A stretch of 32,000 nt of DNA from Formosa sp. Hel1_33_131 (GCF_001735745.1 NZ_CP017260.1:360001-392000), one strand, 5' to 3'; numbered from the stretch's first letter, positions 3,878 through 18,513 are shown. Notes: a model not told the origin generated them from the letters alone. Numbers and translations: made by a program.

Positions 3878-3897
3878 TAATTGAGAAAAACTATAGC

Positions 3898-4163: not shown

Positions 4164-6548
4164 TTAATTAAGTCTTTGTTTATCTTCGTTAAATTTAGCT
4201 ATCCTTCTTTGCTTTACATTTTTACTACCAATTTTATAAGTAAGTGAAAGTGTAAAATTTCTCATATCGTTATAAATACTTGAAGACTGTGTGAAATTCT
4301 GATACTGTTCTTCTCCTACATTTCTATTTTGTTTAAATAAATCATTTCCAGATATATTTACTTGAAGGTTCTCTTCAAGTAATCTAAATTTCAATCCTAA
4401 ATCAAGACTAGCTCTGTTTCTTGATTTAAAAAAACCATCTACGTTCGGAAAGCTTTGAAAGAAATTGATTGTAAAAAAGGATGTTCTTTTTTCGTTTAAA
4501 GAAATGGTGTTTTTTGTTGAAAAATAGACACCATAACCATCATAAGATTTTAATGTTTCATTTTCAAAATTTGAATTTGCTTTATTAAAATAAGTACTTA
4601 CAGAATTATAACTATTAACCCATTTAAAAAGTGTTAAACGATGGCTAACATCTAAACCATAAGTGTATTGATTATATAGGTTTTCCGGCTTCGTAATAAT
4701 CTCATTAGAATTTTCATTAGCTATAGTAATAAAGTCTATAACATCAATAAGCTTTGAACCATATAATATTAGCGATAAGTTGTTTTTATAAATGTATGAA
4801 AATTCTAAATTATGAGTAAATGAAGGCAATAAAAAAGGATCCCCCGATTCATAAGAATATGGGTCTGAATAAATTCTGAAAGGATTTAAATTTGAAAAAC
4901 CTGGTCTATCAATTCTTTTTGAATAAGACATAGATAGTGAATGATTTTCTTTTGGATCATATGAAATATATGCACTCGGAAAAATATTATTTAAATTATT
5001 AGTGTTTGTCTGGTTTAATGTAGGAGAGAAACCTTTTAAATAGGTATTTTCGTATCTTAAACCTATTTGTGCAATCCATTTTTCACTTAATTCTTTCTCT
5101 ATTGAAATATATAAGGCTGATGTTCTTTCTTCATATTCGAATTGATTAGACCTGTTTAAATTGATTATTGGAGTTCCATATGTTGTATCGTAGTAAAACA
5201 GACTACTATTATTATTTATAAAAGTTAATTTTCCTCCAACCTCTAAATCAAAAGCATCATAAGGTAGTGTGAAATCTGTTTTTAAAGATGCTACTTCATA
5301 TTTGTTATCAGAATTATTTAGAACAGATGTATTTAAACTATTAACACCATTACCCAGCCTATTAATACTATTGAAATCTATATCATTTGAACTATCTTTT
5401 ACTAAGTAATCGATATTTAAACTGAATTTCTTTCCAATACTATCTAGCTTTAAATCATAATATCCATTAATAGAATGAAAATTATACTTATTTTTATTTC
5501 TTGTTAACGTTGTTAAAATAGAGTCTAAAACAAAATTTTCCTTTTGAATAAAATTACTTATATTATTTCCTCTTTGACTAATATCCCAAAAACTACCGCT
5601 ATAAATAAATCCTGTTTCTGATTTTTCATTTATTTTATAATTCGAATTTAGATTTAGCATTAACCCTTTAGAAGAATCTTTTCTGTCTTTTGATGTATTC
5701 CAAAATCTAGAAGTGTATTCTACATCGTTTGTAGATATAGATTTTTTAGCTTCTGTATCAGCAGAGACGTTCAGTGATATATTTAATTTTTTAGTCGCAA
5801 ATTTCACATTACTGGTTGGTATAAAGGCAGCATATGTTCTTTGTATATATGTAGCTCCAACAGAACCATCCCATCCTAAGTTTGGATTTTTTTTAGTTAC
5901 AATATTAATTAAACCACTGTTTCCTTCAGCGTCATATTTAGCAGGAGGCGTTGTAATAACTTCTATTTTTGAAATATTGTCTGAACGAATACTTCTTAAA
6001 TATGCTTCTAAATCACTACTTGATAAATTGAGCACTCTTCCATCTATTAAAACATTAACACTACTTTTTCCAATAATTTTGATTCCACCACTTGAAACAT
6101 CAATTCTTGGAGTTCGTTGCAAAACTTCTAATCCATCAACTCCTTGAGAAACAATACTATTTTCAACATTAAAAATTAATCGGTCGACTTTTTTTTGGAT
6201 TAAAGGTTTTTTTGCTGAAATAACTATTTCATCTAATTTATTTTTACTGTGTATTAATGTAATATTACCTAAATCAATGTCTTTATTTTTAACTAGTACT
6301 TCTTTAACCCAGTCCTTATAACCAATAAAAGTAACTATTAAATTGTATTTTCCTTTTTTTGATTTTATTGTAAAAGAACCTTGATCGTTGGTTATAGAGC
6401 CTGAAACAAAATTATTATCAACGTCAGTCAATATAACATTCGCAAACTCTATATAGCTTATAGAGTCTTTTACCTTCCCCTTTACAATAATTTGAGAAAA
6501 AGAAAAAAAGGGAATAATTGAGGTTAAAGCTAATAATAAATACTTCAT
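4164..6548 (-). CDS. Outer-membrane beta-barrel / TonB-dependent-receptor-like protein with an N-terminal carboxypeptidase-regulatory-like domain
   Basis: 794 aa. There is a signal peptide (MKYLLLALTSIIPFFSFSQ), then a CarboxypepD_reg-like fold (IVKGKVKD...GSFTIKSKKGKYNLIVTFIGY). A plug-like segment follows (DEIVISAKKP...VDRLIFNVENS...LEVLQRTPRIDV...ISKIEVITTPPAKYDAEGNSGLINIVTKK), then a long barrel rich in aromatic and Asn residues. The C-terminus SLTYKIG plus a basic tail is typical of the Bacteroidota OMP_b-brl_3-type family. Confidence 0.8.
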   Translation of the reverse strand: MKYLLLALTSIIPFFSFSQIIVKGKVKDSISYIEFANVILTDVDNNFVSGSITNDQGSFTIKSKKGKYNLIVTFIGYKDWVKEVLVKNKDIDLGNITLIHSKNKLDEIVISAKKPLIQKKVDRLIFNVENSIVSQGVDGLEVLQRTPRIDVSSGGIKIIGKSSVNVLIDGRVLNLSSSDLEAYLRSIRSDNISKIEVITTPPAKYDAEGNSGLINIVTKKNPNLGWDGSVGATYIQRTYAAFIPTSNVKFATKKLNISLNVSADTEAKKSISTNDVEYTSRFWNTSKDRKDSSKGLMLNLNSNYKINEKSETGFIYSGSFWDISQRGNNISNFIQKENFVLDSILTTLTRNKNKYNFHSINGYYDLKLDSIGKKFSLNIDYLVKDSSNDIDFNSINRLGNGVNSLNTSVLNNSDNKYEVASLKTDFTLPYDAFDLEVGGKLTFINNNSSLFYYDTTYGTPIINLNRSNQFEYEERTSALYISIEKELSEKWIAQIGLRYENTYLKGFSPTLNQTNTNNLNNIFPSAYISYDPKENHSLSMSYSKRIDRPGFSNLNPFRIYSDPYSYESGDPFLLPSFTHNLEFSYIYKNNLSLILYGSKLIDVIDFITIANENSNEIITKPENLYNQYTYGLDVSHRLTLFKWVNSYNSVSTYFNKANSNFENETLKSYDGYGVYFSTKNTISLNEKRTSFFTINFFQSFPNVDGFFKSRNRASLDLGLKFRLLEENLQVNISGNDLFKQNRNVGEEQYQNFTQSSSIYNDMRNFTLSLTYKIGSKNVKQRRIAKFNEDKQRLN

Positions 6549-6607
6549 GTTTTTAATTGATTTGAGACTCTAAACTTACAACTAGATTCAACTTAAACAA
6601 AACTTAT

Positions 6608-6651
6608 GTAGTTGAAATTTATAAATTTCATGTCCGTATTTATAAATTTCA
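6608..6651. promoter_or_regulatory. Two copies of a palindromic operator in the divergent OMP/lanB promoter region
   Basis: GAAATTTATAAATTTC at 6614-6629 is a perfect 16-bp palindrome. The 14-mer ATTTATAAATTTCA recurs exactly 21 bp later (6617 and 6638). The same 14-mer is also found at 11591. Confidence 0.6.
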
Positions 6652-6755
6652 GCCTCTATAATTATTTATAAAACACTCATTTTGAGGTTTTTAAATTTAT
6701 TTTAGGAACTAATTATAAAATCCGTAGATTTACAGTCCCAAAACCTACTTAGTGC

Positions 6756-9008
6756 ATGTTAAAACCTAAAAACCCTTATACTTTTTTCAATACTTATTGT
6801 TTAAGAACACCTCTTTTACCATTGAATCGGGTTTTAAATGCACTACAAAAAAGAGGTTTTGAGGATGAGTCTCTAAAAGAGTATTGGCAAAACACTCATT
6901 TAAAAGAAGCTGTTTTTTTAGCATCGCCCTACCTTTTCTCTGAACTAGAATTACTATTTGAGGGAACAATCACTTCTGTAAAAAAAGCAGAAAAGTTAAA
7001 ACAAAGCTTTTTAAAATATGTTCTCAGAGCCTCCTCTCGTTGTACGCCTTTTGGACTGTTCTCTGGAGTCTCTTTAGGTCATTTTAATGATACAAGTTGT
7101 ATAGAACTAGAAACAACTAAAACCTTGAAACGCCGAACACGTTTGGATGTGAACTATATGGTTGCGCTCTCAAACTATTTAGAAAAAGAGCCCGTCATAA
7201 AAAACCAATTGGTGTTTTACCCCAACAGTTCGCTCTATAAAATTGCGGATCAATATCGATATATTGCATTTGAAATAGATGGTTTAAAACGCTCTTATGC
7301 TGTTGAAGGCATAGAGTATTCGGTTTATATAGAGACCGTCTTAAATGAAGCTAAAATGGGTAAAACCATTACTGAATTGGCCGTTACAATTACGGACGAA
7401 ACGATCACTGAAGAGGAAGCCACCCACTTTATTCATGAACTCATAGACAACCAGGTCTTAAGTAGTGAATTAGAACACTCTATTTCAGGAACTGATATGC
7501 TATCCCAAACACTAGTGACCTTAAAACAATTAAAACAGTGTGACTCTAATATACAAGACCTACTTAGCATTCAAAAAACACTTCAAAAATTAGATGACAC
7601 TGACAGAAATACCAGTGAAGATTATAAAAAATGTAATCCGATTTTAGAGGCCCTTGGCGTGCCTTATGAGACGAAAGATGTGTTTCAAACGGATCTTTTT
7701 ACAACGACTAAAAACAATGCTTTAAACAAAAAAGTAGCGCACGAATTACGCCGGGCTTTACCACTTTTAAGTAGCCTTAACAAAAAAGATCACAACCCTC
7801 ATTTAGAGCAATTCAAAAAAGCGTTTAAAGAGCGTTATGAAACAAGAAAAATTCCATTAGCTATGGCTTTGGATATAGAAATGGGAGTTGGCTACATTCA
7901 AAATGAAGCTGTTTCAAATACCGTTTCGTTTTTAAATGACATTACGCCTCAAACAGATCACTCCTCTTCTCAAAACTTCTCTTTATCAGAAATTGAAATT
8001 AGCATTCAAAAATTAATGTTTGATGCATTAAAGAATCAGCACTATAGCATTGAACTAAAGGAAGCAATTTTCGCGGATCGTGAAGTGTCTATAGATCATT
8101 TACCTGACACCCTTTCCGCACTCATTGAAGTGATTACTCTAAACAATGAAGAATGTGTTTACATACACTCTTTTGGAGGTTCCAATGGGGCTAATTTACT
8201 TGCTCGGTTTTGTGAGGAGACTGGAGAATTATTTGATTACGTTAAAGAAATGACCTGTATAGAACAGCAGATGAACCCACACAGTGTTTTAGTTGAACTC
8301 ATCCATTTGCCTGAAGCTAGAGTTGGAAATGTGATTAAAAGACCGCATTTAAGAGCTTATGAATTGCCCTATCTCGGCAAGTCTAATCTGCCGTTAGAAC
8401 AGCAAATTAATATTAATGATGTTTTAGTATTTATTAAAAACAACCGTATTGTTTTATGGTCAAAAAAATTAGACAAAGCCATTCTACCTCGTTTAACAAA
8501 TGCTCATAATTACACAAAAAATACGCTTCCTATCTATCATTTTTTATGTGATTTACAAACTCAAAATATTCAAAAAAAGCTTGGATTTTCTTGGGGCGCA
8601 CTCGCCAACAATCATTCCTTTTTACCTAGAGTGTGTTATAAAACCCTCATTCTTTCCAAAGCCACTTGGATTATTGAAACTAAAAAATTTCAATCTTTAT
8701 TTAAATTAGACAAAAACGGAGCGAACTTATTGGATTTAATAAGCGGGTGGAGAGCAACTATTCAAATGCCTCAATATGTTCAGTTAAAAGAAGCCGATAA
8801 TACGTTACTTATAAATCTCGAAAATACAACAATGCTTCATTTGTTATTCGATTCGGTTAAACGCAAAACACAGTTTATCTTAGAAGAATTTTTATTTACA
8901 GAAAAACCTATCGTAAAAAATGAGGATAATGATTTTTTTACGAATCAATTTGTAGTGTCATTTTACAATGAGGAAAAACTAAAAAAAGCTGTTAATTATG
9001 CAAACTAG
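6756..9008 (+). CDS. Lantibiotic dehydratase family protein (LanB N-terminal, tRNA-Glu-dependent glutamylation domain)
   Basis: 750 aa. The N-terminus NPYTFFNTYCLRTPLLPLN and the RCTPFGLFSGVSLG motif are hallmarks of the Lant_dehydr_N family. The size fits a stand-alone glutamylation domain. Confidence 0.85.
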   Translation: MLKPKNPYTFFNTYCLRTPLLPLNRVLNALQKRGFEDESLKEYWQNTHLKEAVFLASPYLFSELELLFEGTITSVKKAEKLKQSFLKYVLRASSRCTPFGLFSGVSLGHFNDTSCIELETTKTLKRRTRLDVNYMVALSNYLEKEPVIKNQLVFYPNSSLYKIADQYRYIAFEIDGLKRSYAVEGIEYSVYIETVLNEAKMGKTITELAVTITDETITEEEATHFIHELIDNQVLSSELEHSISGTDMLSQTLVTLKQLKQCDSNIQDLLSIQKTLQKLDDTDRNTSEDYKKCNPILEALGVPYETKDVFQTDLFTTTKNNALNKKVAHELRRALPLLSSLNKKDHNPHLEQFKKAFKERYETRKIPLAMALDIEMGVGYIQNEAVSNTVSFLNDITPQTDHSSSQNFSLSEIEISIQKLMFDALKNQHYSIELKEAIFADREVSIDHLPDTLSALIEVITLNNEECVYIHSFGGSNGANLLARFCEETGELFDYVKEMTCIEQQMNPHSVLVELIHLPEARVGNVIKRPHLRAYELPYLGKSNLPLEQQININDVLVFIKNNRIVLWSKKLDKAILPRLTNAHNYTKNTLPIYHFLCDLQTQNIQKKLGFSWGALANNHSFLPRVCYKTLILSKATWIIETKKFQSLFKLDKNGANLLDLISGWRATIQMPQYVQLKEADNTLLINLENTTMLHLLFDSVKRKTQFILEEFLFTEKPIVKNEDNDFFTNQFVVSFYNEEKLKKAVNYAN

Positions 9009-9858
9009 ATTTTTTTTAGGGGATGAATGGATTTACTATAAATTGTATTGTGGTAAACGAACAGCGGATCATATTCTTGTGGATATTATAAAGCCATTTA
9101 CTGAAAAACTATTAAAAGAAAACCTAATCACCAAATGGTTCTTTATTCGGTATCACGACCCTAACCATCATTTACGGGTGCGCTTTCATTGTGAAGATCT
9201 TTCTAAAATAGGGACGATTATTAATACCTTTAAAAATGCGATCGACCATCAAGTTGCTAATGACTTTATTTGGAAGGTTCAAACAGATACCTACCAAAGA
9301 GAAATTGAACGCTATGGGAAACTCACAATGATTGGATCAGAGAATCTGTTTTTTCATGACAGCAGCACTAGCATTAATGCTTTGAATTTGATTGAAGATG
9401 AGGAACTCTTATTTTTATTTGTTTTAAAATCCATAGATGCATTGTTAAGTGTTTTTGAATACGATTTAAAAGCTAAAATTAGTTTCTCTAAAGTGAACCT
9501 GACTTCTTATAGAAATGAGTTTAAAGCGGAGAAAAACTTCAGCAAACAGCTAAATAAAAAATATCAAAAATTAAGACCTAAAGTGGAATCGTTCATGGCT
9601 TTAAAAGAAAGTAGTGATTATGACGCTCTCTTAAACTTAATAACGACTAAGAATAGAGAAATCGAAACAATTAAAACACCTATTTTAGAGTTGCATAAAA
9701 ATAATAAATTAGAAGTTCCGTTAAATCATTTACTATCTAGTTATATACACATGATGGTCAACCGTCAATTTAGAGACAAACAACGTTTATTTGAATTGGT
9801 TTGTTATGATTGCCTATTTCGATATTACAACAGCCTATTTGCAAAACAATTAAATTAA
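8998..9858 (+). CDS. Thiopeptide-type bacteriocin biosynthesis domain protein (LanB C-terminal / SpaB_C glutamate-elimination domain)
   Basis: 286 aa. WIYYKLYCGKRTADHILVDIIKPF...KWFFIRYHDPNHHLRVRFH is the signature of Lant_dehydr_C. It overlaps the upstream gene by 11 nt, giving a split LanB as in thiopeptide systems. Confidence 0.8.
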   Translation: MQTRFFLGDEWIYYKLYCGKRTADHILVDIIKPFTEKLLKENLITKWFFIRYHDPNHHLRVRFHCEDLSKIGTIINTFKNAIDHQVANDFIWKVQTDTYQREIERYGKLTMIGSENLFFHDSSTSINALNLIEDEELLFLFVLKSIDALLSVFEYDLKAKISFSKVNLTSYRNEFKAEKNFSKQLNKKYQKLRPKVESFMALKESSDYDALLNLITTKNREIETIKTPILELHKNNKLEVPLNHLLSSYIHMMVNRQFRDKQRLFELVCYDCLFRYYNSLFAKQLN

Positions 9859-9864
9859 CTCAAC

Positions 9865-11541
9865 GTGAAGTATAAATTATCCCCCATATTTATCTTTCTA
9901 TTTCTGACTTCAACCCTTTGGAGCCAACAAACGGCTTTAAGTTATGAAGTTTTAGAAAACAATATTAAGACTTCAAAGTCAGATTCTATTCGTGAAATAT
10001 ATGCTTCGACGTTACTTTTAAAAGCAAAAAAAGAAAATAATGTTCTAAAAATTGCTGATGGCTATAATCATTTGTCAGAAATTAACTCCCACACTTTAAG
10101 TGGTTTAAAATATGCTGATAGTATTATTGACTTGACAGCTACATTAATAAATTCAAAATACCCTGCTGAAGGTTATCTTCAAAAAGGAATTCAGTTGTTT
10201 TATTTAGCAAAACATAATGAATCCTTAGACAATTATATTAGGGCTCTTAATGATTTTCAGGCAAATAATAATACTTATGGAAAAGTAAGAGTGAACCATT
10301 ATATAGGTCTATTAAAAAACAGTATAAATGAAGAGAAAGAAGCGTTAGAAATTTTTAAAAAAAATATTTCTTTTTTTGAAAGTTCAAAAAATAAACATTT
10401 ATACAAAAGACAATACTTAAAGTCCTTATTTGCAATTGTAGATTCTTATAACAGAAATAAAATATTAGATTCAGCAGAAATATATGGAAGAATGGGTATT
10501 AAGGAAAGCTTTCAAAGTCATGACAAGTATTTGTATAATTATTTTTTATTATCATATGGATCAACTAAAACTTTTAAGGGAGAATATAAAGTAGCGATTG
10601 ACAGTCTTATTAAAGGCACCAAATTATTAACAAATGAAAAGCTTGTAATAGCAGGAAGTTATTTGATTTTAAGTCAAGCTTTTGAAGGCCTAAAAGAGTA
10701 TTCAAAATCATTACTATATTTAGATAAAGTAGATTCATTATATCAAAAAAATCCTGAAACAATATTTCAAGCAAAGGAATCTTATAAGATTTTACTTAAG
10801 TATAGTCAAAAAGAAAATAATCCCCAAAAGCAATTAAATACAATTAAAAAACTTCTTAAAGTTGATAGTATTATTAATGTTAAACACAATCAGTTAAGTA
10901 AGAATATTGTAAAAAAACATGATACTCCAGAATTAATTTTAGAAAAAGAACGCATAATTAAACAATTGAATAATAGTTATTCTTTATCCAAAAATAAAAT
11001 TATTATTTTATCTATTGTCATTATCTTCTTAATTATCATTTTGCTTTATAGTATAAGAAAAAGCATAATTAATAAGAAAAAATTTGAAATTATTAAAGCA
11101 AAAATTAATTCCGATGTTAAAGAAGAAAACAAAGAAAATTTAATAAAGGTTACTACTACAACTACTATTACTACTGGAATACCCGAAGATTTAGTAAAAG
11201 AAATTATACTTAGTTTAGAGAAATTTGAAAGTTCAAATAAGTTTTCAAAAAAACATTATACATTAAACACCCTTGCAAAAGAACTAAAAACAAACAGCAC
11301 CTATTTATCTAAAGTAATAAATGCAACAAAAGAAGCAAATTTTGCTAATTATTTGAACAATTTAAAAGTTGATTTTGCTATTAAAAGGTTATCAAAGAAT
11401 AAGCAATTTAGAGCATATACAATAAAAGCTATTGCAGAGGATTCTGGTTTTAATAACGCACAATCATTTTCGGCTGCATTTCATAAAAAAACAGGTATTT
11501 ATCCATCATATTTTATTAAAGAACTTAATAATGAAAAATGA
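9865..11541 (+). CDS. Membrane-spanning one-component regulator: signal peptide, TPR-like repeats, one TM helix, C-terminal AraC-type HTH
   Basis: GTG start. The signal peptide is MKYKLSPIFIFLFLTSTLWSQQ. About 340 aa of helical-repeat sequence follow, then the TM helix IIILSIVIIFLIIILLYSI and a basic stretch RKSIINKKK. The C-terminus HYTLNTLAKELKTNSTYLSKVIN...IKAIAEDSGFNNAQSFSAAFHKKTGIYPSYF is an AraC/XylS HTH. Confidence 0.8.
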   Translation: MKYKLSPIFIFLFLTSTLWSQQTALSYEVLENNIKTSKSDSIREIYASTLLLKAKKENNVLKIADGYNHLSEINSHTLSGLKYADSIIDLTATLINSKYPAEGYLQKGIQLFYLAKHNESLDNYIRALNDFQANNNTYGKVRVNHYIGLLKNSINEEKEALEIFKKNISFFESSKNKHLYKRQYLKSLFAIVDSYNRNKILDSAEIYGRMGIKESFQSHDKYLYNYFLLSYGSTKTFKGEYKVAIDSLIKGTKLLTNEKLVIAGSYLILSQAFEGLKEYSKSLLYLDKVDSLYQKNPETIFQAKESYKILLKYSQKENNPQKQLNTIKKLLKVDSIINVKHNQLSKNIVKKHDTPELILEKERIIKQLNNSYSLSKNKIIILSIVIIFLIIILLYSIRKSIINKKKFEIIKAKINSDVKEENKENLIKVTTTTTITTGIPEDLVKEIILSLEKFESSNKFSKKHYTLNTLAKELKTNSTYLSKVINATKEANFANYLNNLKVDFAIKRLSKNKQFRAYTIKAIAEDSGFNNAQSFSAAFHKKTGIYPSYFIKELNNEK

Positions 11542-11581
11542 ATTCAAGTTGTTGATTTAAAAAGTCTTGGCTAATTATTTT

Positions 11582-11604
11582 GTTGTTGATATTTATAAAT
11601 TTCA
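11582..11604. promoter_or_regulatory. Third copy of the palindromic operator, upstream of peptide P4
   Basis: GTTGTTGATATTTATAAATTTCA matches 6608-6630 at 21 of 23 positions. The 16-mer at 11588-11603 is 15/16 identical to the perfect palindrome. GTTGATATTTATAAATTTCAAC (11585-11606) is itself a 22-bp near-palindrome. It lies 65 nt upstream of the P4 ATG. Confidence 0.6.
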
Positions 11605-11668
11605 ACATATAAAATAGCATTAAATCAAAATTATAGCAGTAGATTTATAAAACTCTAAATTTAAAATT

Positions 11669-11815
11669 ATGAAAAAAACAGAATTAAAAAAAGAAAAACT
11701 TGGAATTAAAAAATTTCAAATTTCAAAAATCAACAACCCTCAATTAATAATTGGTGGGAATGCTAATTTAGGTGATGATGATGACGGCGATCATCCAACA
11801 CTAGTAACTAAATAG
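11669..11815 (+). CDS. Small GG-leader peptide P4 (48 aa)
   Basis: Hand translation: MKKTELKKEKLGIKKFQISKINNPQLIIGG|NANLGDDDDGDHPTLVTK*. The leader resembles P1-P3 (KFQISKI...LIIGG versus NFQFEKL...LQNIAGG). It has its own operator upstream and a strong terminator downstream. It is below the ORF-track cutoff. Confidence 0.7.
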   Translation: MKKTELKKEKLGIKKFQISKINNPQLIIGGNANLGDDDDGDHPTLVTK

Positions 11816-11860
11816 AAAAAACACACACCATATTCTAATTTATTATGGTGTGTGTTTTTT
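11816..11860 (+). terminator. Rho-independent terminator / attenuator after P4
   Basis: ACACACACCATA (11821-11832) and TATGGTGTGTGT (11844-11855) form an exact 12-bp stem with an 11-nt loop. A T-run follows (to 11860) and an A-run precedes it. Confidence 0.75.
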
Positions 11861-11875
11861 AAATTAATAAACCCT

Positions 11876-14053
11876 ATGAACTATAAATCTATTGCTATTT
11901 TAATTCTATGTATTTTAATTATGCAATGTAAAAATAAGAAAGAATTAGTGTTAGCACCAATTAATGTTGTTGTTGATGAAATTCATGGACAAAGAATAGA
12001 AGATCCGTATCGTTATATGGAAAATATTGATGATAGTATTTATATAAATTGGTTAAAAGGTCAAAAAGAAAATAAAGAATCAGTAGTAGGTAATATTTCT
12101 AATAGAGATAATTTAAAATTAAAAATAGAAAAGTTTCAAGAAAGGACTCCTGAAAAAATCTCAAAACTAACAATCATGGATAATGATGTTTACTTTTATT
12201 TAAAAGAGAACACAACATCTAAAGTAAAAAAACTGTATTCAAGAGATGGCTTTAAAGGAGAAGAAGTTTTATTATATAATCCTGAAAACTTTGATAATGA
12301 ACATCCTTATGTAATAAATTATATTAAACCTAGTTGGGATACTTCAAAAGTAGTTATAGGCTTAACAAAAAATGACGAAGAATTTTCAATATTAAAAATC
12401 CTTGATGTAAAAACTAAAAATTTAGTTGGAGATATTAAAATAACTAATACACTTCCAACTTCTCTAGGAGGTGTTAAATGGTTGCCTGATGATTCTGGTA
12501 TTATTTATGTAAATGTACCAGTAATTGATTCTAAATCTAAAAAATATTTACACAATTCGGAAGTTGTACTATATAGATTTAATGATAACCCTAAAGAATC
12601 TCCCACTGTTATTTTTTCAAAAAAGGAGAATCCAAAACTGAAAATAAAGGAAGAAGATTTCCCGTTAATTTACTTAGACAACCAAAATGTTGAATATATT
12701 ATTGGAGTGGTTACTAGAGCTTCAAGATATAGAGATACTTATTATATAAAAATAGATGAACTTAATAATAAAAAAATTAAATGGGAGCCATTATTTAAAA
12801 AAGAAGAAAAGATTAAACGCTTTATTGTTACAAAAGATGAAATCATTTATATGACTTCAAAAACAACTCCCAATTTTCAAATATGTAAAACCTCACTAAG
12901 TAATCCTGATTTTGAAAATCCACAAGTTTTAGTTTATGAGAATACTAAAGAAGTTATTACAGATTTTGTTATAACAAAACAAGGCTTGTTTTTCGTAAAA
13001 ATAAAAAATGGTGTTGATGCAAAACTTTATAAAATAGAAAATAATCAAGAAAAAAATATCGAGATCCCAAAACCTTCAGGAAGTATAAATGTATCCTCCA
13101 AAAATGAAAACTCTAATGATTTATGGATATCGATTGATGGGTGGACGCATAAAAAAGAGACCTATAAATATGATTATGATAAAAGTGTATTTATCCCTCA
13201 AAATTTATACCCAGTAGCAGAATATTCGTTACTCAATGATGTGGTTGTTAAAGAAATTGAAGTACCATCGTATGATGGTACATTAGTTCCATTATCTGTA
13301 ATTTATAAAAATAGCATTAAATTAAATGGAGAAAACAGAATGTTACTTACTGGCTATGGCGCTTATGGCATAACTGATAAACCTGTGTTAGACGACTATT
13401 TACTAAACTGGATTAATGAAGGAGGAATCTATGCTTTAGCACATGTGAGAGGTGGAGGAGAAAAAGGAGATGCATGGCATAAAGAAGGGTTTAAAACAAC
13501 AAAACCAAATACATGGAAGGACTTTATTTCGTGTACTGAATATTTGATTGATAAAGAATATACTTCAAATAAAAATTTAGCTGTTTGGAGCGGAAGTGCT
13601 GGAGGAATACTTGTAGGTAGAGCGATTACTGAACGTCCAGATTTATATGCTGCCGCAATAATACGGGTCGGATTACTAAATACTTTACGTTCAGAGTTCG
13701 CTCCAAACGGAAAAAATAATATTAAAGAATTTGGAACAATTAAAGATTCATTAGAATTTAAATCTCTATTAGAAATGGATGCGTTTCACAACATAAAAGA
13801 TGGTGTTGAGTATCCAGCAGTTTACTTAACAGGAGGTATGAATGATGCTAGAGTTGCTGTTTGGCAACCTAGCAAATTTGCTGCAAAATTGCAAAAAGCA
13901 AATGCTTCTGAAAATCCTATTATTTTAGATATTGATTTTGATGGTGGTCATGGATTTGATGCAACTTCAAATAAAAAAAATAATGAATTAGCAGATATAC
14001 TTTCTTTTGCACTCTGGCAAACTGGACATCCAGATTATCAATTGAATAGATAG
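11876..14053 (+). CDS. Prolyl oligopeptidase (S9A family), lipoprotein, copy 1
   Basis: I prefer ATG 11876 (MNYKSIAILILCILIMQCKNK, signal plus lipobox-like Cys) over the track's GTG 11852, which lies inside the terminator stem. The N-terminal beta-propeller region and C-terminal hydrolase domain carry an intact triad context: GSAGG (Ser), GGMNDARV (Asp), DGGHG (His). Confidence 0.9.
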   Translation: MNYKSIAILILCILIMQCKNKKELVLAPINVVVDEIHGQRIEDPYRYMENIDDSIYINWLKGQKENKESVVGNISNRDNLKLKIEKFQERTPEKISKLTIMDNDVYFYLKENTTSKVKKLYSRDGFKGEEVLLYNPENFDNEHPYVINYIKPSWDTSKVVIGLTKNDEEFSILKILDVKTKNLVGDIKITNTLPTSLGGVKWLPDDSGIIYVNVPVIDSKSKKYLHNSEVVLYRFNDNPKESPTVIFSKKENPKLKIKEEDFPLIYLDNQNVEYIIGVVTRASRYRDTYYIKIDELNNKKIKWEPLFKKEEKIKRFIVTKDEIIYMTSKTTPNFQICKTSLSNPDFENPQVLVYENTKEVITDFVITKQGLFFVKIKNGVDAKLYKIENNQEKNIEIPKPSGSINVSSKNENSNDLWISIDGWTHKKETYKYDYDKSVFIPQNLYPVAEYSLLNDVVVKEIEVPSYDGTLVPLSVIYKNSIKLNGENRMLLTGYGAYGITDKPVLDDYLLNWINEGGIYALAHVRGGGEKGDAWHKEGFKTTKPNTWKDFISCTEYLIDKEYTSNKNLAVWSGSAGGILVGRAITERPDLYAAAIIRVGLLNTLRSEFAPNGKNNIKEFGTIKDSLEFKSLLEMDAFHNIKDGVEYPAVYLTGGMNDARVAVWQPSKFAAKLQKANASENPIILDIDFDGGHGFDATSNKKNNELADILSFALWQTGHPDYQLNR

Positions 14054-14099
14054 CGTAGCATTAACAATAGTTAAAATTAGAGTCATATAAGAATTGTTT

Positions 14100-16268
14100 A
14101 TGAAAATCATTAGATTAAAACTATTACTTTTAGTTGTGTGTGTTTTTAGTTGTAAAACTAACAACAATACATCTATAGAAATGTTGCCAGAAAAAGAAGT
14201 GGTTGAGGAATATTTTGGAACGACTGTTAAAGATTCTTATAAATATATGGAAAACCTCAATGATACTATCGTTTTAAATTGGTATAAACAACAAAGTAAC
14301 TATGCTAAGAATAAAATTGATAAGATTCACAATCGAAATAAAATTTTGAAGTTTCAAAATATTATAACTAACAATACATCTAAAATTTCAAATATTTTAA
14401 TAACTAATAATAACCTATATTTTTATTTAAAGAATCATAATGACACAAAAGAGCTCTTTTATAGAGAAGGGATTCATGGTGAGGAGTATTTTTTATTTAA
14501 TCCTGAAAAACATAAAAAAGGAAGTGCTATAAATTATATTGCTCCTAGTTGGGATGGATCAAAAGTAGCAATAGCTATGACTAAAGATGACTTAGAAATT
14601 GGCAATATCATTGTTTTAGATGTATCTAATAAAAAACTATACAACGAATCCATAAATAATTGCTGGCCTTCAGCCTTAGGTGGAATAAGATGGCTTGCTG
14701 ATAATTCTAGATTTACCTACGAATATATCCCCGTTATTGATAAAAAAGAAAAGAATTATTTATTTAATACCGAAACTCGTTTACATGTTTTGGGAGAAAA
14801 CCCTGTTAACGACAGAATATTATTTTCAAATAAAAACAATCCTGAGATTGAAATAAAAGAAGAAGATTTCCCTGAGGTTTCTATTAGCAACGAAAAAAGC
14901 AATTACATATTTGGGAGTGTTTGGGGGGCTAGCTATTATGCTGATTACTACTCCTCCTCTATTGAAAATATTAACAACCAAAAAATCACATGGAAGCCTC
15001 TTTTTAAAAAAGAAGATTTAATAAAGCGGTTTTATTTAGAGGGTGATTATATAGTTTATTTATCCGCAAAAAAAGCTAAAAATTTTGAGATCTGTAGAAC
15101 TTCATTAATTAATCCAAATTTTGAAGATCCAGAAATTTTAGTCTCCGAAGATGAATCATCTGTAATCACAGATTTAACTTTAACAAGCAAAGGATTGTTT
15201 TTTGTTAAAACAAAGAATGGAGTTGAGGCTAAGTTATATCAATTTATTAATAAGAATAAGATCAATAATATTACTCTACCCAAAGAAGCTGGTTATATTA
15301 ATGTTTCTTCTAATGGGAATTTATTCCCTGACTTGAGAATTGAAATTAAAGGTTGGTTGTCCGACAAAGAACGTTATCAATTTAATCATAAAACAAATCA
15401 GTTTACTAAAGAACAATTAGCCAAAGAAAATGGCAATAATGATGAATTATTTGATGGAATTATAATTGAAGAAATAGAAATCATATCGCATGATGGAGTG
15501 AAAGTTCCATTATCACTAATTTATAACAAAGACCTAGAATTAAATGGCCAAAATAGAGTGCTAATAAAAGGATATGGAGCATATGGAATAACTCAAAAAC
15601 CTTTTTTGGATCCTTATATACTGCCTTGGCTAAAAGAAGGTGGGATTTATGCGATGGCGCATGTAAGAGGAGGAGGAGAAAAAGGCGACTTCTGGCATAA
15701 AAGTGGGTATAAAGAAACAAAACCTAATACATGGAAAGACCTAATAGCCTGTTCGGAATATCTTATCCATAAAAAGTACTCTTCTAGTAGTAAAACTGTT
15801 ATTTATAGCGGCAGTGCTGGGGGTATTTTAATAGGTCGAGCCATAACTGAAAGACCAGATTTGTTTGCAGCAGCTATTATAAGAGTTGGAGTACTAAATA
15901 CTTTAAGGTATGAGTTTTCACCAAATGGAAAAAATAATACTAAAGAGTTAGGTTCAGTCCAAGATTCCATTGGATTTAAAGGTTTGCTTGAGATGGATGC
16001 TTATCAGCATATTGAAAAAGGAGTAAAATACCCCGCAGTATACTTGACAGCTGGATTAAATGATTCTAGAGTATCCGTTTGGCAACCAGGGAAATTTGCC
16101 GCTAAACTACAAGCTGCAACCACTTCAAATAATCCAGTATTTCTTAATGTAGATTCAGAAGGAGGACATGGACTTGATACTTCTAAAAATAAGAAAAATA
16201 AAGAAATTGCCGATATCCTCTCTTTTGCATTATGGCAAACAGGGCATCCAGATTTTCAGTTGAAATAA
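14100..16268 (+). CDS. Prolyl oligopeptidase (S9A family), lipoprotein, copy 2 (tandem paralogue)
   Basis: I prefer ATG 14100 (MKIIRLKLLLLVVCVFSCKTNN, lipobox Cys) over the track's TTG 14094. The protein is collinear with copy 1, sharing long identical runs (GYGAYGIT, AHVRGGGEKGD, TKPNTWKD, GRAITERPDL, ADILSFALWQTGHPD). Triad contexts GSAGG, GLNDSRV and EGGHG are intact. Confidence 0.9.
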   Translation: MKIIRLKLLLLVVCVFSCKTNNNTSIEMLPEKEVVEEYFGTTVKDSYKYMENLNDTIVLNWYKQQSNYAKNKIDKIHNRNKILKFQNIITNNTSKISNILITNNNLYFYLKNHNDTKELFYREGIHGEEYFLFNPEKHKKGSAINYIAPSWDGSKVAIAMTKDDLEIGNIIVLDVSNKKLYNESINNCWPSALGGIRWLADNSRFTYEYIPVIDKKEKNYLFNTETRLHVLGENPVNDRILFSNKNNPEIEIKEEDFPEVSISNEKSNYIFGSVWGASYYADYYSSSIENINNQKITWKPLFKKEDLIKRFYLEGDYIVYLSAKKAKNFEICRTSLINPNFEDPEILVSEDESSVITDLTLTSKGLFFVKTKNGVEAKLYQFINKNKINNITLPKEAGYINVSSNGNLFPDLRIEIKGWLSDKERYQFNHKTNQFTKEQLAKENGNNDELFDGIIIEEIEIISHDGVKVPLSLIYNKDLELNGQNRVLIKGYGAYGITQKPFLDPYILPWLKEGGIYAMAHVRGGGEKGDFWHKSGYKETKPNTWKDLIACSEYLIHKKYSSSSKTVIYSGSAGGILIGRAITERPDLFAAAIIRVGVLNTLRYEFSPNGKNNTKELGSVQDSIGFKGLLEMDAYQHIEKGVKYPAVYLTAGLNDSRVSVWQPGKFAAKLQAATTSNNPVFLNVDSEGGHGLDTSKNKKNKEIADILSFALWQTGHPDFQLK

Positions 16269-16281
16269 GACTCTCTGAAAA

Positions 16282-16419
16282 ATCTTTTTTCTTGTCAAGC
16301 TGAACCTGCCTACCGTCAGGAAGTCCTGCCTGACGGTAGGCAGGTTTATTTTAGCTTCTCATAATTATTGGTTTTCAATACATTGAGATTCTGAAATAAA
16401 CCTACCATTCCAACAAAAA
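16282..16419. repeat. Repeat copy A (~135 bp), upstream flank of the toxin-antitoxin pair
   Basis: It shares ATCTTTT..TT.TCAAGCTGAA with 17091-17223. It also shares AGCTTCT(C/T)ATAATTATTGGTTTTCAAT(A/T)CATTGAGATTCTGAAAT (45 nt, 2 mismatches) and AAACCT(A/G)CCATTCCAACAAAA. Each copy carries a different hairpin insertion. Confidence 0.65.
16303..16352 (+). terminator. Strong rho-independent terminator after the second prolyl oligopeptidase gene
   Basis: AACCTGCCTACCGTCAGG (16303-16320) and CCTGACGGTAGGCAGGTT (16329-16346) form an exact 18-bp stem with an 8-nt loop, followed by TTTATTTT. Confidence 0.8.
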
Positions 16420-16495
16420 CACCCGCTAACGCGGACTTGCAGTCCGTGTAAATTAAAACAACCTGAATTGAGGTGAGTAAAATACTATAAAAAAT

Positions 16496-16511
16496 TAATT
16501 TTGTAAATTTG
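16496..16511 (+). promoter_or_regulatory. Two adjacent matches to the Bacteroidota -7 promoter box TAnnTTTG, upstream of the antitoxin gene
   Basis: TAATTTTG (16496-16503) and TAAATTTG (16504-11), located 6-14 nt before the ATG at 16517. The consensus is recalled from the published Bacteroides promoter consensus. Chance matches are common in AT-rich DNA. Confidence 0.3.
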
Positions 16512-16516
16512 TAACT

Positions 16517-16738
16517 ATGGACATACAAACACGAAAAATAGAATTTGTACAGGCATTTTTAAAACTGCAAAGTGAGGAAATGATTTCTCTTTTTGAAAGC
16601 ATTCTAAAATCGGGAAATAAAGATGATTTTTATCCAATGAGTATAGATGAATTGAATAAACGTATTGACAAATCAGAAAAAGATTTTGAAACTGGGAAAT
16701 CTAAAAACCATGATGAAGTTTTTGCAAAATACAGCTAA
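16517..16738 (+). CDS. Putative antitoxin (73 aa) of a type II TA pair
   Basis: A small acidic protein immediately upstream of a ParE/RelE-like toxin, overlapping it in a TAATG junction. The assignment rests on context; I do not recognise a specific family. Confidence 0.55.
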   Translation: MDIQTRKIEFVQAFLKLQSEEMISLFESILKSGNKDDFYPMSIDELNKRIDKSEKDFETGKSKNHDEVFAKYS

Positions 16739-17052
16739 TGAATTACATAATAATTTGGTCAAATTTTGCAGAATATCAACTTGATGAGATATTTAACTAC
16801 TATACAAAAAAAGTTAATGTAAAAGTTGCTCAAAGTATAATGTTTAAAATCCGAGATAAAGTCGAAGTGCTTATTAAAAATCCTTTGATTGGTGAAAAAG
16901 AGGAACTTTTAGAGGATAGAAAACAAAATTATAGGCGTCTAATAGTTACGAATTACAAAATAATCTACTCTTTGAATGAGAAGATTGAGACTATAAAAAT
17001 AGTTGACATTTTTGACACTCGACAGAATCCAATAAAATTGAAAAGGAATTAA
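16738..17052 (+). CDS. Type II toxin-antitoxin system RelE/ParE family toxin (104 aa)
   Basis: MNYIIIWSNFAEYQLDEIFNYY...NPLIGEKEELL...YRRLIVTNYKIIYSL..ETIKIVDIFDTRQNP shows the typical ParE/RelE-fold sequence pattern and size. Its start overlaps the stop of the upstream small gene. Confidence 0.8.
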   Translation: MNYIIIWSNFAEYQLDEIFNYYTKKVNVKVAQSIMFKIRDKVEVLIKNPLIGEKEELLEDRKQNYRRLIVTNYKIIYSLNEKIETIKIVDIFDTRQNPIKLKRN

Positions 17053-17090
17053 CATCTGCTGGCTAAAACTTCGCTAGCTACAACGTAAGT

Positions 17091-17223
17091 ATCTTTTCCT
17101 TATCAAGCTGAAACGCCTTTCAGCTTCTTATAATTATTGGTTTTCAATTCATTGAGATTCTGAAATCAGAATGACAGGTTTAGTTACTTTTTAGACAATC
17201 AGAAACCTGCCATTCCAACAAAA
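17091..17223. repeat. Repeat copy B, downstream flank of the TA pair; also the convergent terminator region for the toxin gene and argH
   Basis: See copy A. This copy contains the hairpin AAGCTGAAA/TTTCAGCTT (17105-17125) and ATTCTG/CAGAAT (17156-17171). AATGACAGGTTT (17169-17180) pairs with AAACCTGCCATT (17203-17214) at 11 of 12 positions. Confidence 0.65.
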
Positions 17224-17236
17224 TCACTCTCCACCC

Positions 17237-18511: not shown

Positions 18512-18513
18512 AG

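What the first reader, a model, noticed from the sequence alone, without database searches (positions are those of the whole stretch)
11582..11663. Same operator, same 65-nt spacing, upstream of the P4 peptide gene
GTTGTTGATATTTATAAATTTCA (11582-11604) matches 6608-6630 at 21 of 23 positions. The segment 11585-11606 is a 22-bp near-palindrome GTTGATATTTATAAATTTCAAC.

The 16-mer ends 65 nt before the P4 ATG, identical to the distance between the 6.6-kb palindrome and the OMP ATG. A second shared element, ATTTATAAAACTC (11643-11655), mirrors ATTTATAAAACACTC at 6664. GTTGTTGAT is also repeated at 11548 and 11582.

This is direct sequence evidence that the OMP-precursor-grasp operon and the P4-POP operon are wired to the same regulator.
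Basis: seen in the sequence. Interest (0 to 1): 0.65.

Follow-up and report, generated by a model that had tools for sequence, protein, structure and literature searches.

The report
Conserved palindromic regulator box, peptide operons
The repeated AT-rich palindrome is a real regulatory DNA site, conserved across several marine flavobacterial genera, that most likely lets one uncharacterised membrane-anchored AraC-type regulator switch on both a small secreted-peptide gene and a peptide-modification operon.

Summary
11582-11604 matches 6608-6630 at 21 of 23 positions. 11584-11607 is a 24-bp near-palindrome. Both palindrome centres lie 73.5 nt from the start codon they face (P4, and the OMP gene on the minus strand).

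The 18-bp core TGAWATTTATAAATWTCA is not chance. In 79 loci from Tenacibaculum, Kordia, Aquimarina and Polaribacter it occurs about 94 times more densely beside homologues of window gene 9865-11541 than elsewhere. That gene encodes a signal peptide, TPR domain, one membrane helix and an AraC-type DNA-binding domain.

The site after the regulator gene is followed at +44/45 by a flavobacterial sigma-A -7 box (TAnnTTTG). At 69-85 nt comes the ATG of a GG-leader precursor like P4. This puts the palindrome near -56, an activator position rather than a repressor operator.

The shared-regulator reading is therefore supported, and the regulator is probably the gene between the two sites. Binding and co-expression are untested. 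The GTTGTTGAT repeat is probably chance.

The layout resembles PlcR-PapR peptide signalling, but with a periplasm-facing sensor. No description was found in the searched literature.

The parts
11584..11607 (.). 24-bp near-palindromic regulator box, TGTTGATATTTATAAATTTCAACA. The 18-bp core is 11587-11604 and the centre is at 11595.5.
   Evidence: PWM score is 26.6, using a matrix built from other genomes only. The homologous position, 0-45 nt after the regulator's stop codon, holds the same box (PWM score >=14) in 46 regulator-site pairs from 45 loci, this window among them.
11640..11647 (+). Predicted sigma-A -7 box TAGATTTA of the P4 promoter, at offset +45 from the box centre. The implied transcription start is near 11652 and the 5' UTR about 17 nt.
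   Evidence: Position-specific conservation of TAnnTTTG at +44..+51 in 46 after-regulator sites. A box lies at +44/45 in 25 of 46 sites. The -7 box occupies -12..-5 in flavobacteria (PMC9723704). The start site is inferred, not measured.
11669..11815 (+). P4, a 48-aa GG-leader precursor peptide: MKKTELKKEKLGIKKFQISKINNPQLIIGG followed by the core NANLGDDDDGDHPTLVTK.
   Evidence: Homologous peptides start 69-85 nt from the box centre in most related loci, versus 73 nt here. The same holds in metagenome contigs found from the motif alone.
11816..11860 (+). Intrinsic-terminator-like hairpin with a T-run directly after P4.
   Evidence: -22.6 kcal/mol, z = -6.7, 0 of 200 shuffles fold as well.
9865..11541 (+). 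Candidate cognate regulator, 558 aa: signal peptide, TPR domain (~27-341), one long helix 344-416 containing the membrane span (~377-397), and a C-terminal AraC-type two-HTH DNA-binding domain (~424-556).
   Evidence: Pfam HTH_18 and HTH_AraC. AlphaFold2 model with pLDDT 87.5. PDB profile hits to AraC-type domains and to Rap TPR domains. More than 240 homologues. Box density beside this gene family is 1.26/kb versus 0.013/kb elsewhere.
6613..6630 (.). Perfect 18-bp palindrome TGAAATTTATAAATTTCA in the divergent OMP/lanB intergenic region. The centre is at 6621.5.
   Evidence: PWM score 28.1, the maximum.
6634..6651 (.). Second, half-degenerate copy (CCGTATTTATAAATTTCA), 21 nt from the first on the lanB side.
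   Evidence: Direct repeat with 21-nt spacing. The same arrangement of a palindrome plus an extra half-site at 21 nt recurs in L021, L026, L028, L035, L044, L048, L052, L061 and L072.
6571..6578 (-). Predicted -7 box TAAGTTTA of the OMP-precursor-grasp-SPASM operon, at offset 44 from the 6613-6630 centre. The implied start is near 6566. The OMP ATG is at 6548.
   Evidence: with coordinates checked. The geometry matches the P4 promoter. The start site is inferred.
6725..6732 (+). Candidate -7 box TAGATTTA of the lanB-regulator operon, 31 nt (start to start) before the lanB ATG at 6756 and 83 nt from the lanB-proximal site centre.
   Evidence: The same 83-nt offset is seen in L021, L026 and L007. 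Its functional meaning is unknown.
4164..6548 (-). First gene of the left-hand target operon, an OMP_b-brl_3 / CarboxypepD_reg outer-membrane protein. It is followed by three GG-leader precursors (3898-4062, 3613-3780, 3437-3601), an ATP-grasp gene (2412-3425) and a SPASM maturase gene (1117-2289).
   Evidence: TIGR04192 and TIGR04193, the grasp-with-spasm system.

Best explanation
The two sequences are copies of a conserved dyad-symmetric transcription-factor binding site. The core is TGAWATTTATAAATWTCA, and at the P4 site the symmetry extends to about +/-12.

The protein that binds it is most likely the regulator encoded between the two sites (9865-11541). This is a single-pass membrane protein with a periplasm-facing TPR sensor and a cytoplasmic AraC-type DNA-binding domain, probably acting as a dimer.

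Each site is centred about 56 nt upstream of the predicted start of a flavobacterial sigma-A promoter (-7 box TAnnTTTR at +44/45, with a weak or absent -33). Occupancy would therefore recruit or stabilise RNA polymerase and activate transcription. One target is the P4 precursor gene, with read-through into two lipoprotein prolyl oligopeptidase (POP) genes. The other, divergently transcribed, is the OMP-precursor-ATP-grasp-SPASM operon.

Shown here: the sequence identity, its statistical significance, its conservation, its exclusive linkage to this regulator family, and the phased -7 box and start codon. Inferred: that this regulator binds, that it activates, the transcription start sites, and the membrane topology.
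For: Significance in the window: only 2 hits to the 23-mer, and 0 of 100 shuffles match that.

Conservation: a matrix built without the window finds 111 sites scoring >=14 in 79 related loci, against 2.4 in shuffles.

Linkage to the regulator: 93 of those 111 sites lie within 600 bp upstream or 200 bp downstream of a regulator homologue (1.26/kb versus 0.013/kb elsewhere). Nine of the 18 remaining sites lie upstream of the lanB genes that precede the regulator.

Fixed architecture after the regulator gene, across Tenacibaculum, Kordia, Aquimarina and Polaribacter:
- the box lies 0-45 nt after the stop codon;
- TAnnTTTG lies at +44..+51, with a weak TTTG at +20..+23;
- the ATG of a GG-leader peptide lies at 69-85 nt, mode 76-78.

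Window promoters: P4 and OMP share this geometry, with the box at 45 and 44 and the ATG at 73.5 for both.

Motif-first test: of 119 exact 18-mers in metagenome contigs, 11 abut a regulator homologue, and 11 (largely the same contigs) carry a GG-leader peptide ATG within 55-100 nt, at 78-81 nt for most of the P4-like ones.

Regulator properties: the recognition helices are almost invariant across the family, as is the DNA core. The composite 6.6-kb site has the 21-bp periodicity typical of AraC/XylS sites. The position, about -70 to -44 and abutting -33, is the usual place for AraC/XylS activators (own knowledge). The -7 box at -12..-5 comes from PMC9723704.
Against: No binding, expression or start-site data exist. 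The regulator assignment rests on co-localisation alone.

An 18-24 bp palindrome is short for two AraC-type domains, each of which usually covers about 17 bp.

No covariation between DNA-binding-domain residues and motif variants could be shown. Within-locus similarity of the flanks is weak, 2.59 versus 2.28.

20 of 79 regulator homologues have no recognisable box nearby.

In other lanB/OMP loci the box-to-promoter geometry on the OMP side differs from the window.

The exact 18-mer also occurs in about 100 unrelated metagenome contexts.
Confidence: 0.68

Rival explanations
1. The palindrome is a genuine operator, but an unlinked transcription factor binds it (for example a global dimeric HTH regulator). 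The regulator gene next to it would be one of that factor's targets, not the binder.
For: The perfect dyad, with arm centres about 13-14 bp apart, looks like a site for a classical dimeric one-HTH protein rather than an AraC-type site. No covariation between the DNA-binding domain and the motif was found. The exact 18-mer occurs in other contexts in metagenomes.
Against: Across about 1.5 Mb of 79 loci with otherwise different gene content, the only gene always next to the box is this regulator, plus the peptide gene it precedes. No second regulator gene is conserved in these neighbourhoods. Most unrelated metagenome hits come from contigs of varied G+C content and are consistent with chance in a very large database.
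Confidence: 0.15
2. The same regulator binds, but as a repressor or dual regulator. The site is an operator in the strict sense, relieved by a signal.
For: Site pairs 21 bp apart (6.6 kb) and a degenerate copy of the right half-site overlapping the P4 -7/+1 region (11643-11667, 80% identity over 25 nt, spacing 52) could support repression or looping.
Against: The conserved site lies wholly upstream of the -33 position, with its proximal edge near -44. The -33 element is weak or absent at the window's P4 promoter, as expected for an activator-dependent promoter. The downstream degenerate copy is not conserved in other loci.
Confidence: 0.12
3. The palindrome after the regulator gene is mainly an RNA hairpin that terminates or stabilises the regulator transcript. 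The resemblance to the 6.6-kb site would then be secondary.
For: At after-regulator sites the dyad extends with compensatory changes at +/-10 and +/-11 (z = 6.5 and 5.0). Some loci form stems of about 20 bp, for example L003 and L007.
Against: The hairpin in the window is only -7.8 kcal/mol, has no T-tract, and is not called as a terminator. The core is conserved as sequence, not just as pairing. The 6.6-kb copy sits between divergent start codons, where nothing needs terminating. Symmetric flank changes are equally expected for a dimeric protein site.
Confidence: 0.04
4. Chance similarity between AT-rich intergenic DNA, or the basal promoter elements themselves.
For: The island has 23-29% G+C. 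ATTTATAAATTTCA at 2 or fewer mismatches is only modestly enriched in the window: 9 hits versus 4.0 expected. A sigma-70-like TTGATA-18-TAAAAT overlaps the site.
Against: 0 of 100 shuffles reproduce the 23-mer pair. Cross-genus conservation is 111 sites versus 2.4 in shuffles. The Bacteroidota -7 box is a separate, phased element 44-45 nt away. Sigma-70-type matches are not enriched: 26 versus 29.8 in shuffles.
Confidence: 0.01

Closest known systems
AraC/XylS-family activator sites (AraC I1-I2, XylS at Pm, RhaS/RhaR, MelR, ToxT toxboxes)
   Same: The regulator carries a C-terminal two-HTH AraC-type domain. The site abuts the -33/-35 region, spanning about -70 to -44. The 6.6-kb site has a second copy at 21-bp periodicity. 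The regulator gene is adjacent to its targets.
   Different: The core is a compact, nearly perfect 18-24 bp palindrome, not two ~17-bp half-sites. The promoter is the Bacteroidota -33/-7 type. The regulator is membrane-anchored with an extracytoplasmic TPR sensor, not a cytoplasmic ligand-binding or dimerisation domain. Binding was not tested.
RRNPP peptide quorum-sensing cassettes, especially PlcR-PapR of the Bacillus cereus group (own knowledge)
   Same: A TPR receptor is fused to an HTH DNA-binding domain. A ~48-aa exported pro-peptide gene lies immediately downstream of the receptor gene. A palindromic box lies in front of the peptide gene and of the regulon genes. Dedicated extracellular proteases are encoded alongside. 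The TPR profile hits RapJ/RapF (E ~1e-5), and the model resembles a pheromone-bound Rap (TM-score 0.57 normalised to the target).
   Different: The DNA-binding domain is AraC-type and C-terminal, not XRE-type and N-terminal. The TPR domain is predicted to be periplasmic, behind a signal peptide and one membrane span, so no peptide re-import would be needed. The phylum is Bacteroidota, not Firmicutes. The peptides carry GG leaders and sit in RiPP-type clusters. Peptide sensing is purely hypothetical.
Transmembrane transcription regulators (ToxR, TcpP, CadC) and the AraC-type output domains of Bacteroides hybrid two-component systems
   Same: A single polypeptide links an extracytoplasmic sensor, through one membrane helix, to a DNA-binding domain that must work at the membrane (concept in PMC11323476). 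Bacteroides hybrid two-component systems likewise use AraC-type DNA-binding domains on membrane proteins (own knowledge).
   Different: ToxR, TcpP and CadC have N-terminal OmpR-type winged-helix domains and the opposite orientation. Hybrid two-component systems signal by phosphorelay. This protein has no kinase or receiver domain.

Membership tests
AraC/XylS-type activator binding site | A regulator with an AraC-type two-HTH DNA-binding domain is encoded with the site | tested here: met
   HTH_18 at 4e-12 and HTH_AraC. PDB profile hits to YesN and ToxT domains. The regulator is adjacent to the box in 59 of 79 loci.
AraC/XylS-type activator binding site | The site lies just upstream of, or overlapping, the -35 (here -33) element of the regulated promoter | tested here: met
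   A phased TAnnTTTG lies at +44..+51 and a weak TTTG at +20..+23 from the box centre. The centre is then near -56 using the -12..-5 box position from PMC9723704. Start sites are predicted, not mapped.
AraC/XylS-type activator binding site | Two ~17-bp half-sites as direct or inverted repeats with ~21-bp periodicity | tested here: inconclusive
   The 6.6-kb site has a second copy at exactly 21 nt. The P4 site is a single 24-bp palindrome with ~12-bp arms.
AraC/XylS-type activator binding site | The regulator physically binds the site and changes transcription | not testable with these tools
   Needs EMSA, footprinting or ChIP, plus a regulator mutant.
RRNPP (PlcR-PapR-like) peptide signalling cassette | A TPR peptide receptor fused to an HTH DNA-binding domain | tested here: inconclusive
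   TPR plus HTH are present. However, the HTH is AraC-type and C-terminal, not XRE-type and N-terminal. The TPR similarity to Rap is weak (E 1e-5; Foldseek rank 41).
RRNPP (PlcR-PapR-like) peptide signalling cassette | An adjacent small exported pro-peptide gene preceded by the receptor's palindromic box | tested here: met
   A GG-leader peptide of 38-75 aa starts 69-85 nt after the box in about 35 of 46 after-regulator sites.
RRNPP (PlcR-PapR-like) peptide signalling cassette | A cytoplasmic receptor, with the mature peptide re-imported through an oligopeptide permease | tested here: not met
   There is an N-terminal signal-peptide-like segment. A single membrane helix lies within the long helix 344-416, followed by RKSIINKKK. 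This places the TPR domain outside the cytoplasm (positive-inside rule, inference).
RRNPP (PlcR-PapR-like) peptide signalling cassette | The mature peptide binds the TPR domain and controls DNA binding | not testable with these tools
   Needs synthetic peptide, binding assays and reporter assays.
Bacteroidota sigma-A promoter element (-33 TTTG / -7 TAnnTTTG) | The motif itself matches the -7 or -33 consensus at the right distance from the start | tested here: not met
   The palindrome is distinct from the phased TAnnTTTG box and lies 44-45 nt upstream of it.
Rho-independent terminator | A G+C-rich stem followed by a T-tract | tested here: not met
   No terminator is called at 11584-11607. The hairpin is -7.8 kcal/mol and has no T-run. 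The true terminator is the hairpin at 11816-11860 after P4.
Known RNA families (Rfam, including flavobacterial motifs) | A covariance-model match | tested here: not met
   Only one sub-threshold, irrelevant hit in 6300-12000.

The most novel reading that the evidence does not exclude
The regulator, the box, the P4-type peptide and the lipoprotein prolyl oligopeptidases together form a peptide-pheromone autoinduction circuit in a Gram-negative phylum.

The proposed sequence is as follows. The GG-leader peptide is exported and trimmed by the oligopeptidases in the periplasm or at the cell surface. The periplasm-facing TPR domain of the membrane-anchored AraC-type regulator senses the product. 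The regulator then activates, through the palindromic box, both the pheromone gene (positive feedback) and the neighbouring RiPP/outer-membrane operon.

This would be a functional analogue of RRNPP/PlcR-PapR signalling that needs no peptide import. It is widespread and multi-copy in Aquimarina, Kordia and Tenacibaculum, and has hypervariable peptide cores that could define pherotypes.
Probability: 0.3. Interest if true: 0.8.

Novelty: new variant of a known kind. Interest (0 to 1): 0.6.

Why it matters
Regulation of ribosomal-peptide gene clusters in Bacteroidota is essentially uncharted, and such clusters are often silent in the laboratory.

This result gives three concrete handles. There is a defined 18-24 bp box. 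There is a named candidate regulator family, with more than 240 homologues and often several per genome. There is a predicted promoter geometry. Each can be tested with gel shifts, reporters and regulator over-expression to switch such clusters on.

If the periplasmic TPR domain senses the adjacent peptide, this would be a peptide-based cell-cell signalling system in marine flavobacteria. Little is known about quorum sensing in that group.

Tried and rejected
1. Locus-specific flanks as specificity determinants. Within-locus flank similarity is only 2.59 versus 2.28 between loci, and the test is confounded by phylogeny. No claim is made.

2. Covariation between regulator DNA-binding residues and motif variants (G/T at +/-8, A/T at +/-6). 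The recognition helices are nearly invariant, so the test has no power.

3. Terminator reading of the after-regulator palindrome. Rejected for the window. Flank covariation at +/-10 and +/-11 fits a protein dimer equally well.

4. Sigma-70-type promoter scan. No enrichment, and not applicable to Bacteroidota.

5. Rfam scan. Nothing relevant.

6. Motif-first metagenome scan. It confirms the linkage (11 of 119 hits beside regulator homologues). It also shows the bare 18-mer is not diagnostic on its own.

7. A uniform geometry for the OMP-side promoter in other lanB/OMP loci. None was found: site order is inverted in L021, L026 and L035, and the offsets differ. The 44/45 phasing is therefore claimed only for after-regulator sites and for the window's OMP promoter.

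8. Literature. Seven full-text searches found no description of this regulator family, box or circuit. The library covers open-access papers only.

9. The upstream GTTGTTGAT copy at 11548 as a conserved extra half-site. Not conserved.

Full report
**1. The observation**

The sequence at 11582-11604 (GTTGTTGATATTTATAAATTTCA) and that at 6608-6630 (GTAGTTGAAATTTATAAATTTCA) agree at 21 of 23 positions. A search allowing 3 mismatches finds only these two places in the 32-kb window. None of 100 dinucleotide-preserving shuffles gave two hits.

The repeat tool describes 11584-11607 as a palindrome with 14-nt arms, 93% complementary. It describes 6613-6630 as part of a perfect inverted repeat. The exact 14-mer ATTTATAAATTTCA is repeated 21 nt further on, at 6638-6651.

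65 nt separate the 16-mer from the P4 ATG (11669) and from the OMP ATG (6548, minus strand). Both palindrome centres are therefore 73.5 nt from the start codon they face.

Two lesser claims are weaker:
- The 11-mer ATTTATAAAAC is shared at 11643 and 6664. Shuffles of just these two AT-rich intergenic regions share an 11-mer 3% of the time. The two copies also sit at different offsets from their palindromes (48 versus 43).
- GTTGTTGAT occurs four times within 11.5-12.0 kb, twice inside coding sequence. It is not conserved elsewhere.

**2. The surroundings**

The window carries a low-G+C island of 23-29% G+C up to about 13 kb, rising to 28-32% by 17 kb. The neighbouring arginine-biosynthesis operon has about 40%.

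| Coordinates | Strand | Feature |
|---|---|---|
| 1117-2289 | - | SPASM maturase (TIGR04193), grasp-with-spasm system |
| 2412-3425 | - | ATP-grasp maturase (TIGR04192) |
| 3437-3601, 3613-3780, 3898-4062 | - | three GG-leader precursors |
| 4164-6548 | - | OMP_b-brl_3 outer-membrane protein |
| 6756-9858 | + | split LanB dehydratase |
| 9865-11541 | + | 558-aa regulator |
| 11669-11815 | + | 48-aa GG-leader peptide P4 |
| 11852-16268 | + | two S9 prolyl oligopeptidases with lipoprotein-like N-termini |

The regulator has a signal-peptide-like N-terminus, TPR repeats, one hydrophobic span (about 377-397, followed by RKSIINKKK) and a C-terminal AraC-type HTH_18 domain.

An AlphaFold2 model (pLDDT 87.5) shows three parts:
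- a TPR superhelix, residues 27-341;
- one continuous helix, 344-416, that contains the membrane span;
- a compact two-HTH domain, 424-556.

By the positive-inside rule the TPR domain faces the periplasm and the DNA-binding domain faces the cytoplasm. This topology is an inference.

The two motif copies thus flank the lanB-regulator unit. One lies in the divergent OMP/lanB intergenic region. The other lies between the regulator's stop codon and P4.

**3. Comparative evidence**

The regulator has more than 240 homologues at E <= 1e-10, in Tenacibaculum, Kordia, Aquimarina, Polaribacter and unnamed Flavobacteriaceae. A scan of one genome per species returned 79 loci with up to 10 kb of flank.

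The 14-mer, usually as the full palindrome, recurs at two stereotyped places:
- directly after the regulator's stop codon;
- a few hundred bp before the regulator's start, or before lanB where lanB precedes the regulator.

A weight matrix was built from 79 seed instances in 50 loci, with the window excluded.
- The window sites score 28.1 and 26.6.
- It finds 111 sites scoring >=14 in the 79 loci, against 2.4 in shuffled sequence.
- 93 of these 111 sites lie within 600 bp upstream or 200 bp downstream of a regulator homologue. That is 1.26 per kb, against 0.013 per kb in the remaining 1.35 Mb.
- Half of the 18 exceptions lie upstream of the lanB genes that head the regulator operon.
- No site falls inside a regulator coding sequence.

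The gene content around the regulators otherwise varies. Prolyl oligopeptidases follow in about 30 loci, lanB precedes in about 12, and the grasp/SPASM genes appear in a few. The regulator and the peptide gene that follows it are therefore the only constant partners of the box.

**4. Architecture of the after-regulator site**

There are 46 such regulator-site pairs from 45 loci, the window among them.

- **Position.** The box lies 0-45 nt after the stop codon.
- **Extent of symmetry.** Aligning on the palindrome centre shows conservation out to +/-12 or 13, as T-T-S-T, then the core, then A-S-A-A.
- **-7 box.** A second conserved block lies at +44 to +51: T (0.72), A (0.65), n, n, T (0.85), T (0.96), T (0.65), G/T. 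This is the flavobacterial sigma-A -7 box TAnnTTTG.
- **-33 element.** A weak TTTG lies at +20 to +23.
- **Frequency.** A strict TAnnTTT match sits at +44 or +45 in 25 of 46 sites.
- **Implied start.** In Flavobacterium psychrophilum this box occupies -12 to -5, and the median 5' UTR is 24 nt (PMC9723704). The implied start is about +56 or +57, so the palindrome centre is near -56 and its proximal edge near -44.
- **Downstream gene.** The next ORF starts 69-85 nt from the centre, with a mode of 76-78 and 73 in the window. It is almost always a 38-75 aa peptide of the form MKK..KLSLxKFQIAKIxN..GG with a hypervariable core.

In the window:
- The P4 box is TAGATTTA, 11640-11647, at offset 45.
- The -33 position holds no TTTG, as expected for an activator-dependent promoter.
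- On the other side, the 6613-6630 palindrome has TAAGTTTA at offset 44 on the minus strand (6578-6571). The OMP ATG is at 73.5.

**5. The upstream, composite sites**

The pattern of a full palindrome plus a further half-site 21 nt away is seen in the window (6613-6630 and 6634-6651). It recurs in L021, L026, L028, L035, L044, L048, L052, L061 and L072.

For sites lying just before a regulator gene, the phased -7 boxes lie on the far side, at 45 and at 66 (45 + 21). They point at a divergent gene, not at the regulator. Many of these loci are closely related Aquimarina, so they are not independent.

In other lanB/OMP loci the order of strong and weak copies is inverted, and the OMP-side offsets differ from the window. 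I do not generalise that geometry.

Towards lanB, a -7 box lies exactly 83 nt from the lanB-proximal site centre in the window, L021, L026 and L007. This hints at some constraint. Whether the lanB-regulator operon is autoregulated is open.

**6. Motif-first control**

I searched metagenome contigs for the exact 18-mer TGAAATTTATAAATTTCA.

- Eleven of the 119 abut a regulator homologue.
- Eleven, largely the same contigs, carry a GG-leader peptide ATG within 55-100 nt of the centre. For most of the P4-like peptides the distance is 78-81 nt.
- Several more sit in lanB or grasp/SPASM contigs too short to include the regulator.
- The rest are in unrelated contexts of widely varying G+C content.

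The bare 18-mer is therefore not diagnostic in a database of this size. Its recurrent association with one rare gene family is nonetheless far beyond chance.

**7. Mechanism**

The best-supported reading is a binding site for the adjacent TPR-transmembrane-AraC regulator, acting as an activator.

For the regulator assignment:
- The linkage is exclusive (section 3).
- The recognition helices are almost invariant (TNSxYLSKIIN; AQSFSxAFxKKTGIxPSYF), matching an almost invariant DNA core.
- The position, about -70 to -44 and abutting -33, is the usual place for AraC/XylS activators (own knowledge).
- The composite site shows 21-bp periodicity.

Against the regulator assignment:
- An 18-24 bp palindrome is compact for two AraC-type domains.
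- I could show no covariation between the domain and the DNA.
- I could show no locus-specific flanks.
- 20 of 79 regulators lack a recognisable box.

A hairpin or terminator role fits the compensatory flank changes seen only at after-regulator sites. Three findings argue against it:
- The window's hairpin is weak and lacks a T-tract.
- The core is conserved as sequence, not just as pairing.
- The 6.6-kb copy lies between divergent start codons.

No Rfam family matches.

**8. What it resembles**

The closest formal class is an AraC/XylS activator site.

The closest system-level analogue is the PlcR-PapR type of RRNPP peptide signalling. The shared features are:
- a TPR-HTH receptor;
- a ~48-aa pro-peptide gene directly downstream;
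- a palindromic box in front of the peptide gene and the regulon genes;
- extracellular processing proteases.

The regulator's TPR profile finds RapJ and RapF among solved structures (E about 1e-5). The model aligns to a pheromone-bound phage Rap with a TM-score of 0.57 normalised to the target. Generic peptide-binding TPR proteins such as LGN score better.

The system is not a member of the RRNPP family. The DNA-binding domain is AraC-type and C-terminal. The sensor is predicted to be periplasmic. The phylum is Bacteroidota.

The membrane tethering recalls ToxR, TcpP and CadC (PMC11323476) and the AraC-type outputs of Bacteroides hybrid two-component systems (own knowledge). The domain order differs from the former, and there is no phosphorelay as in the latter.

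That the regulator senses the mature P4-type peptide is a hypothesis only. I put it at about 0.3.

**9. Novelty and verdict**

Seven full-text searches found no description of this box, regulator family or circuit. Published surveys note the LxLxKx5L/GG leaders of Bacteroidetes class I lanthipeptide precursors (PMC7268733) and the Bacteroidetes grasp-SPASM clusters (PMC8939145). They do not address regulation of these clusters. The library is open-access only, so an existing description cannot be excluded.

My verdict has three parts:
- The shared-regulator interpretation is supported by conservation, and sharpened to a named candidate regulator and an activator geometry.
- The thing itself is a new variant of a known kind: a transcription-factor box for an uncharacterised, membrane-anchored AraC-type regulator family tied to peptide operons.

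Interest is 0.6.

Noticed in passing
window 11816-11860: A strong hairpin with flanking A- and T-runs (-22.6 kcal/mol, z = -6.7) lies directly after the P4 stop codon. It overlaps the mechanically listed GTG start of the first oligopeptidase (11852). That gene more likely starts at ATG 11877 (MNYKSIAILIL...). P4 is probably mostly monocistronic, with read-through into the oligopeptidase genes.
   Followed up: partly
window 1-17100 versus 17200-26000: The peptide island has 23-32% G+C, against about 40% in the adjacent arginine-biosynthesis operon. A small ORF (16517-16738) followed by a ParE-toxin-family gene (16738-17052), possibly a toxin-antitoxin pair, sits at the island's edge. This suggests horizontally acquired DNA.
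   Followed up: no
L021 (Tenacibaculum sp. TC6) versus window 1117-16268: The cluster is a mosaic. The OMP, ATP-grasp and SPASM proteins are 74-82% identical to the window's, but lanB and the regulator are only 41-52% identical. The discontinuity falls at the box-containing intergenic region, which might serve as a recombination joint between modules.
   Followed up: no
window 6725-6732; L021, L026, L007: A -7 box (TAnnTTTR) lies exactly 83 nt from the lanB-proximal site centre in four loci whose intervening sequence is otherwise dissimilar. This may reflect a second, long-range geometry for the lanB-regulator promoter.
   Followed up: partly
window 11591-11615 and 11643-11667: A 25-nt degenerate direct repeat (80% identity, spacing 52 nt) links the right half of the box to the P4 -7/+1 region. 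It is not conserved in other loci, and its meaning is unknown.
   Followed up: partly
window 1-17000: Four peptides carry GG leaders, yet the window encodes no C39-peptidase ABC exporter. It has a split LanB dehydratase but no LanC cyclase. The export and leader-removal route, and the substrate of LanB, are unclear.
   Followed up: no
L006, L009, L012-L015, L017, L019 (Kordia and one unclassified Bacteroidota MAG), just after the box: The peptides that follow the regulator in these loci have Cys-rich cores ending in a conserved GDTIDTQ or KDTIDTQ tail. The window's P4-type cores are instead acidic (DDDD) and contain Pro and Thr.
   Followed up: no
L005, L010, L046, L050, L056, L062, L071, L077 and MAG 5_bin.25 (L028, L038, L044, L061): The regulator family is multi-copy. 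There are tandem or nearby paralogues within single loci, and four loci from one metagenome-assembled genome. Most carry their own box and peptide gene.
   Followed up: partly
window 27199-31869 (-): A 1556-aa protein with Laminin_G/ConA-like domains and a type IX secretion C-terminal sorting domain. It is unrelated to the finding.
   Followed up: no
L123 507-704 (metagenome contig Ga0136643_10093914): Three exact copies of the 18-mer palindrome lie at 507, 567 and 687 (spacings of 60 and 120 nt) in a contig with no regulator homologue. This looks like a tandem repeat containing the same sequence.
   Followed up: no
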